Assembly: GCF_001677475.2 (NCBI RefSeq)
Contig: NZ_CP015229.1
Reading direction: 5' to 3' (one strand)
DNA: 64,000 nt
Source of the DNA: Escherichia coli
GTDB taxonomy: Bacteria; Pseudomonadota; Gammaproteobacteria; Enterobacterales; Enterobacteriaceae
A program made the position numbers and the translations under genes. Under the pieces are notes generated by a model. That model was not told where the DNA came from, ran no database searches, and saw nothing but the letters and a program-made list of their open reading frames with translations. Shown one piece after another: positions 8,311 through 59,350 of this stretch (the first letter of the stretch is position 1; the number at the start of each line of letters is the position of its first letter).

Positions 8311-8944
8311 TTTGCTGCTCCTCATCATATCGACCCTGCAAGGTCGGTTGGTTTCTCCACAAAACAGAGAAGAACACCTGCGGTGGCAGCCGCCCGGATG
8401 GATTGGGTTATGAGCCCGTCGTCCGGTGATGCTCTTCTCTGTTTTGTAAAAAGAGCGGTACCAGCCGGAAGCAAGTGTACAAACTGGTACCGCCAAAGCA
8501 GTGGCTGTTGTGGTGACCGGTGCTGATCTCCGGCTTGCGGTTATTTCAGACTCTCACGGGTGTTTAATTGCCCCGCCGAACAGCTCTTTTCCGCAATAGC
8601 TGCAATGTCTTTCGCGCATCAGCCTGCGCATTCACCACAACGCTGAGAGCACTTAGCCAGTTACGGCACCACACTTTGTCGCGGTTCCATAAATGCCCTC
8701 ATCGTTGCACCCTGGTCTCTTCCCAGGTGTCAAACCGAACCGCCACGCTGGTTAGGCGTCTTATCAGCATCATCATTGACTTGCACATTCCGGCTACCTG
8801 GTTTGTTTGCCCGAGCAAGGAGTGGATTGTCCCCTTTAACGTCCCCAGACCGCTAACGACGCATGTGCCATACGCCGTGTTACAACCAAATTTTGTTAGT
8901 ACCTTGTTTGTTGGTCTGGAAAGAAAGATAAAATGAAGTTGCGC

Positions 8945-8985
8945 ATTATGCAAGTGTTTTTGTTGCGAGATATGCAATTTGATGG
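8945..8985. promoter_or_regulatory. Putative OL operator/PL promoter region (TTGCG-N5-TGCAA palindromes)
   Basis: TTGCGCATTATGCAA and TTGCGAGATATGCAA immediately downstream of the cI terminator; the same half-site recurs in the cI-cro intergenic region. Confidence 0.4.
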
Positions 8986-8989
8986 GTAA

Positions 8990-9012
8990 TGAAAAGCCAC
9001 CTTCGGGTGGCT
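8990..9012 (-). terminator. Rho-independent terminator downstream of the repressor gene
   Basis: GCCACC-TTCG-GGTGGC stem-loop followed by a U-run on the minus strand. Confidence 0.6.
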
Positions 9013-9032
9013 AATTGATGAGGAGGTAAGGG

Positions 9033-9725
9033 TTAATTGTGTCGCTTAAGGGTTTGTGACTGGCTGATTAAGACCTTTCCAAAGACCATAAACCGGTGTT
9101 CATTTTCGCTGGTAATTCCCCATTCACGGTAAATCTGGTTATCAGAAATCACCAGTAGTTTGTCAGGTATCATTTGCAGTCGTTTGACATAAATTTTATC
9201 ATCAAAACCAAATACATAGATACCATCTCCATCAAACTGATTGATACTGACATCAACGAAGATGAGATCTCCTGGCTCAATGGTTGGACACATACTGTCC
9301 CCACGAACGTTGATTACTTTAATGTGATTTGCTGGCCGTCCGCCAAACATCGATACAGCATTATCAGTTCTGTATTCAATGGCATGAATCACATCAATGA
9401 CATCACCGCCCTGGATAAGGCCATTTCCCGCACTGGCACTGATATCCAGCATTTCAATACGGAATACATCCTTCACCTGCGCAACATCCTCACTAATACT
9501 GTTTTTACATACAGTATTACTTTTGAAGTCTGAGGTAAAGAGATCAGCAATATCAACACCTAAGCTCCTGGCAATATTACTCAGGGCTTGTTCAGTGAAT
9601 TGTTTCTGCTTACCTGTTTCCAGGCGCGAGATATTTGCCGCATCCACTCCTATTGCTTCAGCGAGATCGGCGATTTTCATGTTCTTCGCTTGGCGAAGTT
9701 GTCTGACTCGATTTCCTATGTTCAT
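9033..9725 (-). CDS. CI-like repressor (N-terminal HTH, C-terminal S24/LexA-type autopeptidase)
   Basis: 230-aa ORF; HTH (MKIADLAEAIGVDAANISRLETGK) and S24 peptidase motifs (GDSM ... KRL). Confidence 0.85.
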   Translation of the reverse strand: MNIGNRVRQLRQAKNMKIADLAEAIGVDAANISRLETGKQKQFTEQALSNIARSLGVDIADLFTSDFKSNTVCKNSISEDVAQVKDVFRIEMLDISASAGNGLIQGGDVIDVIHAIEYRTDNAVSMFGGRPANHIKVINVRGDSMCPTIEPGDLIFVDVSINQFDGDGIYVFGFDDKIYVKRLQMIPDKLLVISDNQIYREWGITSENEHRFMVFGKVLISQSQTLKRHN

Positions 9726-9729
9726 GCGT

Positions 9730-9822
9730 TTATTACATTTCTTTATTGCGCGTTAAGCAAATCAACTTGCGCAAAATATTTGCGTGAAATAATATGCTCA
9801 TCACGCAATATGTGGAGGTTAT
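9730..9822. promoter_or_regulatory. Divergent promoter/operator region between cI and cro (OR-like)
   Basis: Repeated TTGCGCAA / TTGCGTGA ... TCACGCAA palindromic half-sites between divergent genes. Confidence 0.5.
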
Positions 9823-10083
9823 ATGCAATCACCATTACGGAATGTGCGTAAAGCGCACGGATTTACTTTGCAGCATGTTGCTGCTGGCGTTCAGGTCAAT
9901 CCAGCGACGCTGAGTCGTATTGAAAGACTGGAACAAATTCCATCTATCGAGCTTGCAGAACGTCTGGCCAATTTTTTTAAGGGTGAAATCAGCGAAATGC
10001 AGATTCTTTATCCGGCACGTTTTCAATCTAGCCAAAACCAGAATGGGTTTAAACCACAGGAACAGGAGATAAGCCGTGGGTAA
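9823..10083 (+). CDS. Cro-like HTH regulator (YdaS-like)
   Basis: 86-aa HTH ORF divergent from cI; SD GGAGG before ATG. Confidence 0.7.
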   Translation: MQSPLRNVRKAHGFTLQHVAAGVQVNPATLSRIERLEQIPSIELAERLANFFKGEISEMQILYPARFQSSQNQNGFKPQEQEISRG

Positions 10084-10627
10084 GCATCACTGGAAAGTGG
10101 AAAAACAGCCTGAGTGGTACGTGAAAGCTGTCAGAAAAACTATCGCGGCGTTGCCGGGGGGTTACGCTGAAGCTGCTGAGTGGCTGGATGTAACAGAGAA
10201 CGCTTTATTCAACCGCCTTCGTGCAGATGGCGATCAGATTTTCCCGCTGGGATGGGCAATGATTTTACAGCGCGCTGCTGGCACTCACTACATTGCGGAT
10301 GCTGTCGCACAGTCTGCTGGTGGGGTGTTTGTATCGCTTCCTGAAATTGAGGAAGTAGAGAACGCCGATATAAACCAGCGCCTGCTGGAAGTCATCGAAC
10401 AAATCGGGAGTTACTCAAAGCAGATTCGTTCGGCAATCGAAGATGGGGTAGTGGAGCCACACGAGCAGACAGCAATTAATGATGAGTTGTATCTGTCGAT
10501 TTCGAAGCTCCAGGAGCATGCGGCACTGGTCTACAAAATTTTCTGCGCTCCAGAAAAGAGTGACGCCCGCGAGTGTGCAGCTCCGGGCGTCGTGGCGTTT
10601 TGTGTCTGTGGAGAAACTAACGCATGA
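10076..10627 (+). CDS. YdaT-like protein (CII-position regulator of Rac-type immunity regions)
   Basis: 183-aa ORF overlapping the cro-like gene; GTG start with SD AGGAG; position and size match racR-ydaS-ydaT arrangement. Confidence 0.55.
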   Translation: MGKHHWKVEKQPEWYVKAVRKTIAALPGGYAEAAEWLDVTENALFNRLRADGDQIFPLGWAMILQRAAGTHYIADAVAQSAGGVFVSLPEIEEVENADINQRLLEVIEQIGSYSKQIRSAIEDGVVEPHEQTAINDELYLSISKLQEHAALVYKIFCAPEKSDARECAAPGVVAFCVCGETNA

Positions 10628-10772
10628 ACAGTTTAACGGCAAATAACCGTTTGTCGCAACAGCTGGTGGTCAGCGTCTCTGAACACCTGTTGTTACGGCA
10701 TGAATGCAGATTACCAAATCACCAGGCTGTAAGTAACCACAGAGAACTTTACCTGACTGTGGGGGGCGAGTT

Positions 10773-10952
10773 GTGCAGGAACTTAACCGCTGGTTTCGTG
10801 ACGGAAGAGGGCTTTATGTTCATGTTATTCGTTGGGAACCAGAAACACAGCGCGTTATCTATCTTCGCAAAGACTACCCGCATGAGTGCTTTAGTCCTTT
10901 GTGGAAATTCAGGCGTGATTTTGTTGAGTGTGACGGACCACCAACACATTGA
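10773..10952 (+). CDS. Hypothetical 59-aa protein (GTG start), upstream of a terminator
   Basis: GTG preceded by GGGGGG; ORF MQELNRWFRDGRGLYVHVIRWEPETQRV...; below the track length cutoff; hand-translated. Confidence 0.3.
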   Translation: MQELNRWFRDGRGLYVHVIRWEPETQRVIYLRKDYPHECFSPLWKFRRDFVECDGPPTH

Positions 10953-11037
10953 TTCTGCCATTCCGGGACGTTACACTGTTCAGGCACCTTATAAAACGGG
11001 TGCCGGGCGTGGAAACCCGGAATTCACCAAAGCGCAC

Positions 11038-11060
11038 AACCGCGCTCTTGCGGTTTTTTT
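11038..11060 (+). terminator. Rho-independent terminator (tR1-like) containing a boxA-like CGCTCTT
   Basis: AACCGC-GCTCTT-GCGGTT stem followed by TTTTTTTG. Confidence 0.5.
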
Positions 11061-11229
11061 GTGTCATGAGCAGCATTACGCCCAAATTATGGTGGGGCGT
11101 GCAGGGCCAACTTCGGTTGGGCCGGGTTCTTTGGTGACCGGTATTTCCACCCCTGTACGTCTCACCACCAATAAGGTCGTGGAAAGCCTTGGTGGTGAGT
11201 TATTAAAAATCACCAAAGAGGCTGCCATC

Positions 11230-11775
11230 ATGGCTACGATCCCAACCCTCACTCAACCTGAAATTGCCATCGTTGATGGTCAGGTTGTTACTTCATCCCT
11301 GGCTGTTGCCAACTTCTTCTCCAAACGTCATGACGATGTACTGAAAAAGATCCGCACGCTTGAATGCTCAGCATCATTCACTGCCCGCAATTTTTCGGTG
11401 AGTGATTACACTGATTGCACAGGTCGCAAACTTCATTGCTACCAAATCACACGCGACGGTTTTGCGTTTCTTGCTATGGGTTTCACGGGTAAACGTGCTG
11501 CCCAGTTCAAAGAGGCATATATCAATGCCTTTAACCAGATGGAGAAACAGCTTTCAAAGCCCGCTGTACCGAGCGACGTTGCACATAACGCCAGCGTTCT
11601 CTGTTCCTACATTTCATCAATTCATCAGGTCTGGCTGCAGCAGCTTTATCCTATGTTGGCAAAAGCCGAATCTCCGCTGGCTGTTAGCTTATATGATTAT
11701 ATTAATGATGCTTCGGCGCTGGCCTGCCTCATAAATTTGTCGCTGAACCCTTCAGAGGTAAGGGGGCGCAAATGA
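11230..11775 (+). CDS. Rha-family phage regulatory protein / antirepressor-like
   Basis: C-terminal part of track ORF 10624..11775; start set at MATIPTLTQPEIAIVDGQVV with SD AAAGAGG; Rha-like N-terminus. Confidence 0.6.
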   Translation: MATIPTLTQPEIAIVDGQVVTSSLAVANFFSKRHDDVLKKIRTLECSASFTARNFSVSDYTDCTGRKLHCYQITRDGFAFLAMGFTGKRAAQFKEAYINAFNQMEKQLSKPAVPSDVAHNASVLCSYISSIHQVWLQQLYPMLAKAESPLAVSLYDYINDASALACLINLSLNPSEVRGRK

Positions 11776-19294: not shown

Positions 19295-19594
19295 AAAAAT
19301 TCCTTAATACTGATAACTTGGCGCACTATACACACGTTCCTGAAGAAAGCTATAGTTTTTTGATGGGGTTGAAGATGGCTGGATGTCTAAAATAAACATT
19401 GCTTCATATGTTCAACTATGCGTTAATGATTGCGTCGGTTTGAAGAACAGACGATATACGAAGTAGTTTACTAAAGCAGTTCTCATTTCAGGTGTTATTC
19501 ACTTATTCCTTCTTTGAGTCTCTCCAATTAAGTACGAAGTCGTTTCTGTTATACAAGCCATTTATGCCGAAAGGCTCAAGTTAAGGAATGTAGA

Positions 19595-19810
19595 ATGTCA
19601 AATAAAATGACTGGTTTAGTAAAATGGTTTAACGCTGATAAAGGTTTTGGCTTTATTTCTCCTGTTGATGGTAGTAAAGATGTGTTTGTGCATTTTTCTG
19701 CGATTCAGAATGATAATTTTCGAACCTTATTTGAAGGTCAAAAGGTTACCTTCTCTGTAGAGAGTGGTGCTAAAGGTCCTGCAGCAGCAAATGTCATAAT
19801 TACTGATTAA
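19595..19810 (+). CDS. cspB: Cold-shock protein CspB
   Basis: 71-aa [44 protein letters not shown]...; near-identical to recalled CspB; divergent from the cspF-like gene as in Qin. Confidence 0.9.
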
Positions 19811-20092
19811 AATTAATAGTTTGTCTGTATACGATAACGAAGAAGGCTGATGCCTGAGTGGAGATACAGACAGAGTGGTGAATATTGGATCTCTTTAATA
19901 AATAGTAAGGAGATCCAATACATGAAACAATGGCCAGCATATTTGGCAATAACTTAATCAGGAAAAGTATGCTAACCATTGTGGTGAAGTGCAGGTTTGC
20001 TGCATGAATAGTTTTACAGCAGAAGCTAACTGCTAGCATAGCAAAACAAAGTGCGTAAGTGGATGACTCCCACAAAAAGCACCACAATATTA

Positions 20093-22683: not shown

Positions 22684-23045
22684 ATTAATATTAAATCGGA
22701 TTATTTTTAGCGCTGAATGTGAAATTTAAATAAAAAGGACTCTTCCATGAGTCAAAATCCTTGAAATCTTAAGGGTAAGATAAAAGGTCATTAGACAGAA
22801 TGACACGTTTTATTAATAAATAAAGCTATTGTTTCATTCGTGTGTTTTTCTTTACAAAAGTAATCCTTGCTATGGTTGGTTAATCATGCGTTAATGGTGT
22901 TCTGGTTTGTTACAAAATTATCTGAAGCAGTCATTGTTATAATTTTATTATTTGTACCTCTTGAGATTTCCTTGTTGGTTTTTCTCTCTGATATTTTTTT
23001 CGGACCATTCTGCCCAAGGGCTAACTTCTTCAAAAGGTAATAATG

Positions 23046-23258
23046 ATGTCTAACAAAATGACTGGTTTAGTGAAATGGTTTAACCCTGAAAAAGGTTTTG
23101 GTTTCATCACGCCGAAAGATGGTAGCAAAGATGTGTTTGTCCATTTCTCAGCTATTCAGAGCAACGATTTCAAAACGTTAACTGAGAATCAGGAAGTCGA
23201 ATTTGGTATTGAGAACGGACCTAAAGGCCCCGCGGCTGTTCATGTTGTGGCACTTTGA
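23046..23258 (+). CDS. cspI: Cold-shock protein CspI
   Basis: [70 protein letters not shown] matches recalled CspI. Confidence 0.9.
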
Positions 23259-23461
23259 GGTAGAAAATATTACAAACCATATTCACTTTAGATGCCCGTG
23301 TTGCCATGGTTCTCAGTATAGAACATCATCTTTTGATGTTTCTGACAGGAATCCTTTCGGGGCAAAATGTATCTTTTGTAAATCAATGATGATTACATTT
23401 GATAATATTTCACAATACTTAAATGTTAGCCGTCTGTCGTTAGATTTAAGAAAGTGAAAAT

Positions 23462-51353: not shown

Positions 51354-51929
51354 ATGGATTTCAGAATGAGTGAACAACCACGGACCATAACAATTTATAA
51401 TCTGCTGGCCGGAACTAATGAATTTATTGGTGAAGGTGATGCATATATTCCGCCTCATACAGGTCTGCCAGCAAACAGTACCGATATTGCACCGCCAGAT
51501 ATTCCGGCTGGCTTTGTGGCTGTTTTCAACAGTGATGAGGCATCGTGGCATCTCGTTGAAGACCATCGGGGTAAAACCGTCTATGACGTGGCTTCCGGCG
51601 ACGCGTTATTTATTTCTGAACTTGGCCCATTACCGGAAAATGTCACTTGGTTATCCCCGGAAGGGGAGTTTCAGAAGTGGAACGGCACAGCCTGGGTGAA
51701 GGATACGGAAGCAGAAAAACTGTTCCGGATCCGGGAGGCGGAAGAAACAAAAAACAACCTGATGCAGGTAGCCAGTGAGCATATTGCGCCGCTTCAGGAT
51801 GCTGCAGATCTGGAAATTGCAACGGAGGAAGAAATCTCGTTGCTGGAAGCATGGAAAAAGTATCGGGTATTGCTGAACCGTGTTGATACGTCAACTGCAC
51901 AGGATATTGAATGGCCAGCACTGCCGTAG
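51354..51929 (+). CDS. tfa: Tail fibre assembly protein Tfa
   Basis: [41 protein letters not shown]... matches recalled lambda Tfa; SD GAGGTG upstream. Confidence 0.9.
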
Positions 51930-54102: not shown

Positions 54103-54146
54103 CTGTGTTTGTATACAGTGTTATTTTTAACTGTATGAATAAACAG
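54103..54146. promoter_or_regulatory. Two tandem LexA boxes (CTGT-N8-ACAG) in the dinI-like promoter
   Basis: CACTGTGTTTGTATACAGTG at 54101..54120 and AACTGTATGAATAAACAGTG at 54129..54148. Confidence 0.75.

Positions 54147-58374: not shown

Positions 58375-59350
<976 letters not shown>

What the first reader, a model, noticed from the sequence alone, without database searches (positions are those of the whole stretch)
9730..9822. Immunity-region operators share a TTGCG...GCAA half-site on both sides of cI
The cI-cro intergenic region and the region just past the cI terminator (8945..8985) both carry 15-bp pseudo-palindromes built on TTGCG/CGCAA, consistent with OR and OL of a CI/Cro-type switch.
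Basis: seen in the sequence. Interest (0 to 1): 0.3.

Follow-up and report, generated by a model that had tools for sequence, protein, structure and literature searches.

The report
Repressor operators flanking prophage cI
The repeated TTGCG...GCAA palindromes on both sides of this prophage's repressor gene are very probably the binding sites of its lambda-style CI/Cro switch, an ordinary kind of element, although the same region also hides a conserved host LexA site inside the repressor gene.

Summary
Four 15-bp sites of the form TTGCG-N5-YGCAA flank cI: OL1 (8939-8953) and OL2 (8963-8977) just past the cI terminator, and OR3 (9746-9760) and OR1 (9794-9808) in the 97-bp cI-cro gap. A weight matrix built only from relatives' sites ranks these four as the top four positions in the 64-kb window.

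About 60 diverged relatives (CI 67-83% identical) keep the half-sites, while the central N5 and the flanks vary. Phages with the same flanks but an e14-type cI/cro cassette carry different palindromes at the same places.

- The OL coordinates are about 6 bp off.
- The TTGCG at 9780 is not conserved.
- TTGCGCAA (9767-9774) is the PR -35 and a remnant of OR2.
- A further conserved site lies inside cro (9844-9858).

The operators overlap three inferred promoters: PR, PL, and PRM, which would give a leaderless cI mRNA. No binding was tested, and I found no paper describing these operators. Verdict: supported; a new member of a known kind; modest interest.

In passing: a near-consensus LexA box (9497-9516) sits in the cI linker and is conserved at the nucleotide level.

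The parts
8898..10047 (.). Immunity cassette (PL/OL, cI terminator, cI, OR, cro), exchanged as a unit between heteroimmune relatives
   Evidence: blastn to Stx2c phage L178 and to e14: homology stops at 8897 and resumes at 10048. Those phages carry an e14-type cI/cro in between.
8939..8953 (.). OL1, TTGCGCATTATGCAA; its right half on the minus strand (TTGCAT) is the inferred PL -35
   Evidence: Exact pattern match. PWM rank 1 of the window, score 20.3. Present in 68 of 72 unique relatives' OL regions.
8963..8977 (.). OL2, TTGCGAGATATGCAA, 24 bp from OL1
   Evidence: rank 2, score 19.3. Spacing in relatives is 22-24 bp.
8925..8930 (-). Inferred PL -10 (TATCTT). The -35 TTGCAT is at 8948-8953, with a 17-nt spacer; start near 8917-8919, leftward.
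   Evidence: Read from the sequence. AAGATAA is kept at the same distance from OL1 in most relatives. Inferred, no transcript data.
8995..9012 (-). cI intrinsic terminator
   Evidence: Terminator scan. The stem is kept by different sequences in relatives, always followed by a T run on the cI strand.
9033..9725 (-). cI repressor, 230 aa: HTH domain, variable linker, S24 self-cleaving domain (A99-G100, S144 and K181 invariant)
   Evidence: The long start is supported because residues 1-15 form helix 1 of the HTH and are conserved.
9497..9516 (.). Near-consensus LexA (SOS) box TACTGTTTTTACATACAGTA inside the cI linker codons 70-77. Not a CI/Cro operator, but part of the immunity cassette.
9732..9737 (-). 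Inferred PRM -10 (TGTAAT). The -35 TTGCTT is at 9755-9760, with a 17-nt spacer. The start falls on the A of the cI ATG (9725), giving a leaderless mRNA.
   Evidence: ATTACA is invariant in 64 unique relatives. Six to seven nt without a Shine-Dalgarno lie before the ATG. Inferred.
9746..9760 (.). OR3, TTGCGCGTTAAGCAA; covers the PRM -35 and spacer
   Evidence: (rank 3, score 15.5), and 62 (mean 17.5 in 26 relatives, all 8 or higher).
9767..9781 (.). TTGCGCAA box (9767-9774): the inferred PR -35 TTGCGC plus the left half of an OR2-like site. The right half is degenerate in this window.
   Evidence: ACTTGCGCAA is invariant. The PWM mean is 6.1, with 54% of relatives at 8 or higher; the window scores -4.4.
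9790..9795 (+). Inferred PR -10 (TAATAT), 17 nt after TTGCGC; start near 9801-9803
   Evidence: TAnnAT is kept in all relatives. Inferred.
9794..9808 (.). OR1, ATGCTCATCACGCAA (reverse complement TTGCGTGATGAGCAT); covers the end of the PR -10 and the start site
   Evidence: (rank 4, score 13.3), and 62 (mean 20.4, all relatives 8 or higher).
9823..10083 (+). cro-like HTH gene, 86 aa, with Shine-Dalgarno GGAGG at 9814-9818
9844..9858 (.). Operator-like palindrome inside cro codons 8-12, GTGCGTAAAGCGCAC. Weak here; consensus TTGCG-N5-CGCAA in relatives.
   Evidence: An OL-derived PWM gives mean 15.5, with 92% of relatives at 8 or higher; the window scores 6.6. The third bases of codons 8 and 11 are invariant although the amino acids vary.
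10076..10627 (+). CII-like regulator (Phage_CP76 / YmfL family), context only

Best explanation
These are the operators of a lambda-style CI/Cro switch belonging to the mEp460 / SfII / ST64B immunity group.

What is shown:
- Four full 15-bp sites of the form TTGCG-N5-YGCAA, with an AT-rich centre.
- Their conservation across relatives.
- Their co-inheritance with cI/cro.

What is inferred:
- Dimers of the HTH domain of CI bind OL1 and OL2, covering the -35 and upstream region of a leftward promoter PL.
- CI binds OR1, covering the -10 and start of PR, which shuts off cro and the rightward genes.
- CI binds OR3, covering the -35 of PRM, and so limits its own synthesis.
- PRM starts at the cI ATG, giving a leaderless mRNA as in lambda.
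- Cro has a similar recognition helix (A-x-[IL]-S-R-[LI]-E) and is expected to bind the same sites to shut PRM during lytic growth.
- SOS-activated self-cleavage of CI (Ala99-Gly100, Ser144, Lys181) lifts repression.

Each of the three promoters uses an operator half-site as its -35. The TTGCGCAA box is the PR -35 and the left half of an OR2 that is fuller in about half of the relatives but degenerate here. A further site inside cro, about +42 to +56 from the PR start, probably adds a downstream repressor contact.
For: - Gene identities.
- Site counts against chance.
- A PWM from relatives alone puts the four sites at ranks 1-4 of the window.
- A PWM from OL sites alone finds OR1, OR3 and the cro-internal site in 92-100% of 26 representative relatives.
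- Per-column conservation peaks exactly on the half-sites and on TGTAAT, TAnnAT and TTGCGC, with low conservation in the N5 and spacers.
- OL has two sites 22-24 bp apart in 68 of 72 relatives.
- The CI recognition helix VDAANISRLETGKQK is nearly invariant across relatives of 67-83% identity, and Cro shares the motif.
- Natural cassette swap: the same flanks with an e14-type cI/cro have no TTGCG-type site, and GGTACA/GATACA palindromes at the same places.
- Substitutions between close relatives fall in the N5.
Against: - No binding, footprint or transcript start is available, and all promoter positions are read by eye. The tool's stricter promoter scan did not call them.
- In this window OR has only two full sites, 48 bp apart, not the regular three of lambda. 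OR2 and the cro-internal site score poorly here (-4.4 and 6.6).
- OR1 carries a mismatch in one half.
- Single PWM hits of this strength also occur in shuffled sequence. The case rests on clustering and conservation.
Confidence: 0.85

Rival explanations
1. The TTGCG motifs are only sigma-70 -35 elements (TTGCGC, TTGCAT, TTGCTT resemble TTGACA) of three clustered promoters, not protein operators.
For: Each inferred promoter does use a half-site as its -35. ACTTGCG recurs at PR and PL.
Against: A -35 role does not need the partner half-site CGCAA exactly 10 nt away, yet that half is as conserved as TTGCG. OR1, OL2 and the cro-internal site do not coincide with any -35. The motif disappears when cI/cro is swapped, although promoters must remain.
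Confidence: 0.04
2. The palindromes bind another factor: a host regulator, or the CII-like YmfL protein acting at an establishment promoter (lambda CII uses TTGC repeats).
For: TTGC is also the lambda CII half-site (my own knowledge). One TTGC-N6-TTGC direct repeat lies in cro at 9868-9881.
Against: The sites here are inverted, not direct, repeats. TTGC-N6-TTGC is not enriched (2 found, 4.9 expected), and the copy at 9868 is not conserved. YmfL is a 186-type CP76 protein, not lambda CII. It is shared with e14-type phages that lack the TTGCG sites, so the sites track cI/cro and not ymfL or the host.
Confidence: 0.04
3. Only one of the two regulators uses the 15-bp palindromes (CI). Cro acts through a different or single site, such as the invariant TTGCGCAA box, as PY54 Cro does at a single operator.
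For: The abstract of PMC4488713 (listed) reports a Cro with a single operator. ACTTGCGCAA is more conserved than a -35 alone would need, and it extends to a 12-16-bp palindrome in some relatives.
Against: The CI and Cro recognition helices share A-x-[IL]-S-R-[LI]-E, which points to the same half-site. No separate Cro motif recurs at OL.
Confidence: 0.1
4. Chance clustering of a short GC-containing word in an AT-rich intergenic region.
For: Individual matches of similar PWM score arise in shuffles.
Against: The top four PWM positions of 64 kb all fall in a 1.15-kb cassette. Position and half-sites are conserved in about 60 diverged relatives.
Confidence: 0.01

Closest known systems
Lambda / 434 / P22 CI-Cro switch (OR and OL operators)
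   Same: Divergent cI (HTH plus self-cleaving S24 domain) and cro. Partly symmetric operators overlap PR and PRM in the gap, and a second cluster sits at a leftward promoter beyond cI. The cI message is inferred to be leaderless as at lambda PRM. The central bases are AT-rich and probably non-contacted, as in 434 (my own knowledge). The closest solved relative of the CI N-terminal domain is a 434-repressor-derived protein, only E = 2e-4.
   Different: The operator is 15 bp with half-site TTGCG, a different sequence. OR has two full sites 48 bp apart plus a half-site, instead of three at about 24 bp. OL has two sites. An extra site lies inside cro. No N gene was identified; PMC3851460 says SfII lacks N, CII and CIII homologues.
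Phage 933W operators (two-site OL)
   Same: A lambdoid Stx-phage switch whose OL has only two operators, and whose operator affinities depart from the lambda pattern. The abstract of PMC3317979 reports apparently non-cooperative binding; the two-site OL is from my own knowledge.
   Different: Unrelated operator sequence and repressor specificity. 933W has three sites in OR.
TP901-1 CI operators OR, OL and OD
   Same: [quoted passage not shown]
   Different: TP901-1 CI is a hexamer without a peptidase domain, and it needs MOR as a partner. Here the site lies in the first 12 codons of cro, and CI is an S24 protein.
e14 / SfV-type immunity region (YmfK, YmfT)
   Same: Same genome neighbourhood and the same ymfL downstream. 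The architecture is the same: palindromes in the gap and just past the cI terminator.
   Different: Unrelated DNA-binding domains and different palindromes (TTGTACC-N5-GGTACAA, GATACA). It is a heteroimmune cassette.

Membership tests
Lambdoid CI/Cro operator set (OR/OL) | Divergent genes for an HTH plus S24-peptidase repressor and a small HTH Cro, separated by a short gap | tested here: met
   Pfam HTH_3 plus Peptidase_S24 for 9033-9725(-), and HTH_3 for 9823-10083(+). The gap is 97 bp.
Lambdoid CI/Cro operator set (OR/OL) | Repeated, partly two-fold symmetric operator in the gap, overlapping divergent promoters | tested here: met
   OR3 and OR1. The overlap with promoters is inferred from conserved hexamers, not from transcript data.
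Lambdoid CI/Cro operator set (OR/OL) | Second operator cluster of the same consensus at a leftward early promoter on the far side of cI | tested here: met
   OL1 and OL2 at 8939-8977, directly past the terminator.
Lambdoid CI/Cro operator set (OR/OL) | Operator sequence is specific to the immunity type and travels with cI/cro | tested here: met
   The cassette swap at 8898-10047 replaces the TTGCG sites with GGTACA/GATACA palindromes.
Lambdoid CI/Cro operator set (OR/OL) | Three adjacent operators in OR at regular spacing of about 24 bp | tested here: not met
   The window has two full sites 48 bp apart. The 15-mer at the midpoint (9770-9784) scores -45, and the OR2-like site at 9767 scores -4.4 here and 8 or higher in only 54% of relatives.
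Lambdoid CI/Cro operator set (OR/OL) | Direct, differential binding by CI and Cro | not testable with these tools
   Needs EMSA or footprinting.
Lambdoid CI/Cro operator set (OR/OL) | SOS-inducible repressor: Ala-Gly cleavage site with a Ser/Lys dyad | tested here: met
   A99, G100, S144 and K181 are invariant in the alignment. Cleavage itself was not tested.
Lambda CII activator sites | Direct repeats TTGC-N6-TTGC flanking a -35 | tested here: not met
   The sites are inverted repeats. The direct-repeat pattern was found 2 times against 4.9 expected, and not in the operators.
Intrinsic terminator (for the hairpin 9843-9859) | GC-rich stem followed by a conserved T run | tested here: not met
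   The scan flagged it, but relatives have no T run after it and the outer base pair is not maintained.
LexA (SOS) box | CTGT-N8-ACAG with an AT-rich centre and TA flanks | tested here: met
   This applies to 9497-9516 only: TACTGTTTTTACATACAGTA. It is exact in 46 of 53 unique relatives. The TTGCG sites do not fit this pattern.
TP901-1-type operator topology | Repressor operator inside the cro-equivalent gene | tested here: met
   Site at 9844-9858, conserved at synonymous positions. This is a resemblance in layout only, because CI here has an S24 domain, unlike TP901-1 CI.

The most novel reading that the evidence does not exclude
The immunity cassette carries two conserved cis-elements that the lambda paradigm lacks: a repressor operator inside the first codons of cro, and a consensus host LexA operator embedded in the hypervariable linker codons of cI itself. 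If LexA binds there in vivo, the SOS response would act on this switch twice: by CI self-cleavage, and through LexA control of transcription within cI. That control could be an SOS-induced internal promoter or a LexA roadblock that buffers CI supply.
Probability: 0.4. Interest if true: 0.55.

Novelty: new member of a known kind. Interest (0 to 1): 0.27.

Why it matters
This immunity cassette is common. 1039 of 5426 complete E. coli genomes hold at least 80% of the region. It also occurs in Stx2a-converting phages, Shigella SfII and, at 83% CI identity, Salmonella ST64B.

Knowing the operator consensus (TTGCG-TAWTA-CGCAA) and the promoter layout has three uses:
- It lets one predict heteroimmunity between these prophages.
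- It lets one design reporters for their induction, including Stx phage induction.
- It corrects annotations that truncate CI by 15 residues.

As biology it is a routine variant of the lambda switch. The LexA box inside cI is the part that could change how induction of this group is understood.

Tried and rejected
- **e14 as the reference.** Its YmfK and YmfT are unrelated in the DNA-binding part and use other palindromes. It was useful only as a heteroimmune control.
- **A regular OR2 at the midpoint (9770-9784, CGCAAAATATTTGCG).** The half-sites face the wrong way, it scores -45, and it is not conserved.
- **The 32-nt imperfect inverted repeat spanning OR (I1).** It is a by-product of OR3 and OR1 facing each other, and its centre is not conserved.
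- **The promoter called by the scan on the minus strand (TCCACA-16-TATTAT).** It is not conserved in relatives. The conserved TGTAAT-based PRM is preferred.
- **The hairpin at 9843-9859 as a terminator or RNA structure.** There is no conserved T run, and the outer pair is not maintained.
- **First viral-contig scan with the window CI.** It gave only 99-100% identical loci, useless for footprinting.
- **Literature.** The Mehta et al. 2004 e14 paper and the Alonso et al. 2005 ST64B paper are not held. Searches on ymfK, SfV, SfII, ST64B and on a LexA box in a repressor gene found no description of these operators.
- **Downstream of the LexA box.** There is no conserved ATG-initiated frame and no convincing antisense promoter.
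- **Folding of the PL leader.** It is not significant (z = -0.94).

Full report
**What is there**

The finding lies in the immunity region of a lambdoid prophage integrated next to a tRNA-Leu gene. Window 9033-9725(-) encodes a 230-aa CI-like repressor (HTH_3 plus Peptidase_S24). Window 9823-10083(+) encodes an 86-aa HTH Cro-like protein, and 10076-10627(+) a CII-like protein of the Phage_CP76/YmfL family.

The region is 100% identical to Escherichia phage PhiR63_1, 97% to mEp460, 96% to Stx2a-converting phages and 91% to Shigella phage SfII. At least 80% of it is present in 1039 of 5426 complete E. coli genomes. It is not the e14 immunity type. e14 YmfK and YmfT are unrelated in their DNA-binding parts and use GGTACA-type palindromes.

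**Checking the observation**

The 97-bp cI-cro gap holds five TTGCG words, counting both strands. The whole window has 129, so about 0.2 are expected in the gap.

Exact TTGC-N7-GCAA occurs 7 times in the window against 2.4 expected. Three of these are at 8939-8953, 8963-8977 and 9746-9760, and the repeat finder groups them as one family. The reverse complement of 9794-9808 (TTGCGTGATGAGCAT) is a fourth copy with one mismatch.

They are at 8939-8977, not 8945-8985.

**Test against chance without circularity**

I collected relatives whose CI is 67-83% identical to the window's:
- from Salmonella, Citrobacter, Lonsdalea, Kosakonia, Trabulsiella and Buttiauxella genomes;
- from phage Eeyore;
- from 80 viral contigs.

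A weight matrix built only from their sites ranks 8939, 8963, 9746 and 9794 as positions 1-4 of the whole 64-kb window. Single hits of that strength do occur in shuffles, so the weight is on the clustering and on what follows.

**Phylogenetic footprint**

All relatives keep a gap of 97-98 bp. Among 23 representatives below 92% identity, the conserved columns are these:
- the cI start;
- ATTACA (9732-9737);
- TTGCG and TGCAA of OR3;
- AGCAACTTGCGCAA (9761-9774);
- TAnnAT (9790-9795), fused to GCG-N5-CGCAA of OR1;
- the Shine-Dalgarno sequence and the first codons of cro.

The N5 centres and the 15 nt at 9775-9789 are variable. The TTGCG at 9780-9784 is therefore a lineage-specific copy, not a conserved site.

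A matrix built from OL sites alone finds three strong positions in the OR of 26 representatives:
- 9794: mean score 20.4, all relatives at 8 or higher;
- 9746: mean 17.5, all relatives at 8 or higher;
- 9844: mean 15.5, with 92% at 8 or higher.

It also finds a weaker position at 9767 (mean 6.1, 54% at 8 or higher). In this window the sites at 9767 and 9844 are degenerate (-4.4 and 6.6).

At OL, 68 of 72 unique relatives have exactly two sites, 22-24 bp apart, abutting the terminator. Between close relatives, substitutions fall in the N5. The consensus is TTGCG-TAWTA-CGCAA.

**Link to the repressor**

The CI recognition helix VDAANISRLETGKQK is almost invariant across the family. Cro carries a similar helix, PA(T/N)LSRIER.

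A natural swap gives the control. An Stx2c phage and e14 share the flanks up to 8897 and from 10048 onward, but carry an e14-type cI/cro between them. They have no TTGCG-type site, and they have GATACA/GGTACA palindromes in the gap and just past their cI terminator. So the sites travel with cI/cro, not with the host, with ymfL or with the flanking genes.

**How it most likely works**

The promoters are inferred from conserved hexamers.
- PR: TTGCGC (9767-9772), 17 nt, TAATAT (9790-9795), starting near 9802. OR1 covers the end of the -10 and the start site.
- PRM, on the minus strand: TTGCTT (9760..9755), 17 nt, TGTAAT (9737..9732). This places the start on the A of the cI ATG. No Shine-Dalgarno is present in any relative, so the cI mRNA would be leaderless, as at lambda PRM (my own knowledge). 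OR3 covers the -35 and spacer.
- PL, on the minus strand: TTGCAT (8953..8948), 17 nt, TATCTT (8930..8925). OL1 sits at the same position relative to PL as OR3 does to PRM, with OL2 upstream.

CI has the Ala-Gly, Ser and Lys of self-cleaving repressors, so SOS induction is expected. None of this was measured. The tool's stricter promoter scan did not call these promoters.

**The site inside cro**

At 9844-9858 (cro codons 8-12), relatives read TTGCG-N5-NCGCA(A/C/T). Among 36 representatives, the third bases of codons 8 and 11 are invariant G (2.0 bits, against a mean of 0.62 for third positions). Codon 11 meanwhile changes between Ser, Ala, Thr and Leu through its first two bases. The constraint is therefore on the DNA.

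The site is not a terminator, because there is no conserved T run. It is not a maintained RNA pair either. An operator inside the cro-equivalent gene is known from TP901-1 (OD; PMC7250872). HK022 has a far-right operator (my own recollection).

**Comparison and novelty**

This works like the lambda, 434 and P22 switches, and it meets the architectural features tested. It departs in four ways:
- the operator sequence and its length (15 bp);
- the lack of a regular three-site OR in this window;
- a two-site OL, as in 933W (my own knowledge);
- the site inside cro.

No close solved structure exists. I found no paper describing these operators. The only switch-related statement found for SfII is that it lacks CII, cIII and N homologues (PMC3851460). 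The library is incomplete, and the e14 and ST64B papers are not held. I file it as a new member of a known kind.

**Seen in passing and partly followed**

A near-consensus LexA box, TACTGTTTTTACATACAGTA, lies at 9497-9516 inside cI. It falls in the linker between the two domains.

Among 31 representatives, the nucleotides are fixed although several of the amino acids vary:
- Codons 71, 72 and 76 are always ACT, GTA and AGT.
- The third base of codon 70 is always T, although the residue varies among S, T, N, I and F.
- Codon 75 keeps xAC in 28 of 31, although the residue varies among N, Y, D, S and T.
- The neighbouring linker codons are highly variable.

The typical form, TACTGTATATAAAAACAGTA, is as I recall identical to the umuDC SOS box. 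The box is also present in Cronobacter phage ENT47670, whose CI is 50% identical. It is absent from ST104, HK022, Mannheimia PHL101 and e14-type repressor genes.

No conserved downstream ATG frame or clear promoter was found. The best guess is a weak sense-strand promoter: TTTACC, 17 nt, TACTGT. I found no literature on it. Its function is open. Candidates are an SOS-controlled internal promoter or a LexA roadblock.

Noticed in passing
window 9497-9516 (inside cI, codons 70-77): Near-consensus LexA/SOS box TACTGTTTTTACATACAGTA in the hypervariable linker of cI. Exact CTGT-N8-ACAG is kept in 46 of 53 unique relatives, with invariant synonymous positions while the amino acids vary. It is also present in a 50%-identical Cronobacter phage CI and absent from P22-like, HK022 and e14-type cI. 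Function unknown; no literature found.
   Followed up: partly
window 9844-9858 (cro codons 8-12): Operator-like palindrome inside cro, conserved at synonymous positions across the family but degenerate in this window (GTGCG...CGCAC). It was flagged as terminator-like by the scan.
   Followed up: yes
window 10984-11172, within the ORF 10624-11775 annotated 'Rha': Rfam hits to the isrK Hfq-binding RNA (10984-11060) and the C4 antisense RNA (11085-11172). The long ORF is therefore probably a P1 immI-like c4/antirepressor module, with the real Ant/Rha protein starting later. A weaker LexA-like box, CTGTAAGTAACCACAG, lies upstream at 10727-10742 and is kept in the Stx2c phage.
   Followed up: no
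window 54103-54118 and 54131-54146: Two exact CTGT-N8-ACAG boxes with AT-rich centres, 28 bp apart (CTGTGTTTGTATACAG and CTGTATGAATAAACAG). This is probably a genuine tandem SOS operator of a neighbouring gene, which was not identified.
   Followed up: no
window 8330-8918, minus strand (PL leader): About 590 nt between the inferred PL start and yfdP have no convincing ORF. A 10-bp-stem hairpin at about 8848-8870 (ACGGCGUAUG-GCA-CAUGCGUCGU) recurs in relatives with one compensatory change. Other relatives and e14 instead carry the conserved element GCGGCTACTTCGTGGGCGTCCTGCCTGTTCGC. The overall fold is not significant (z = -0.94).
   Followed up: partly
window 9681-9725 (cI 5' end): Several public annotations (mEp460, Stx2a_1447) start CI at Met16, giving 215 aa. 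That would delete helix 1 of the HTH. Residues 1-15 are conserved across the family, which supports the 230-aa form.
   Followed up: yes
window 9826-9840 (cro codons 2-6): The first codons of cro (CAA TCA CCN ...) are unusually conserved at synonymous positions: third-base information is 1.0-1.8 bits against a mean of 0.62. ATGCAA also contains an operator-like half-site. The cause could be translation initiation or protein binding; not resolved.
   Followed up: no
window 19434-19873, 22889-23304, 51697-51895, 227-309, 59150-59329: Other Rfam hits in the window: two cspA thermoregulator leaders, IS009, and three naRNA4 copies. They are unrelated to the finding.
   Followed up: no
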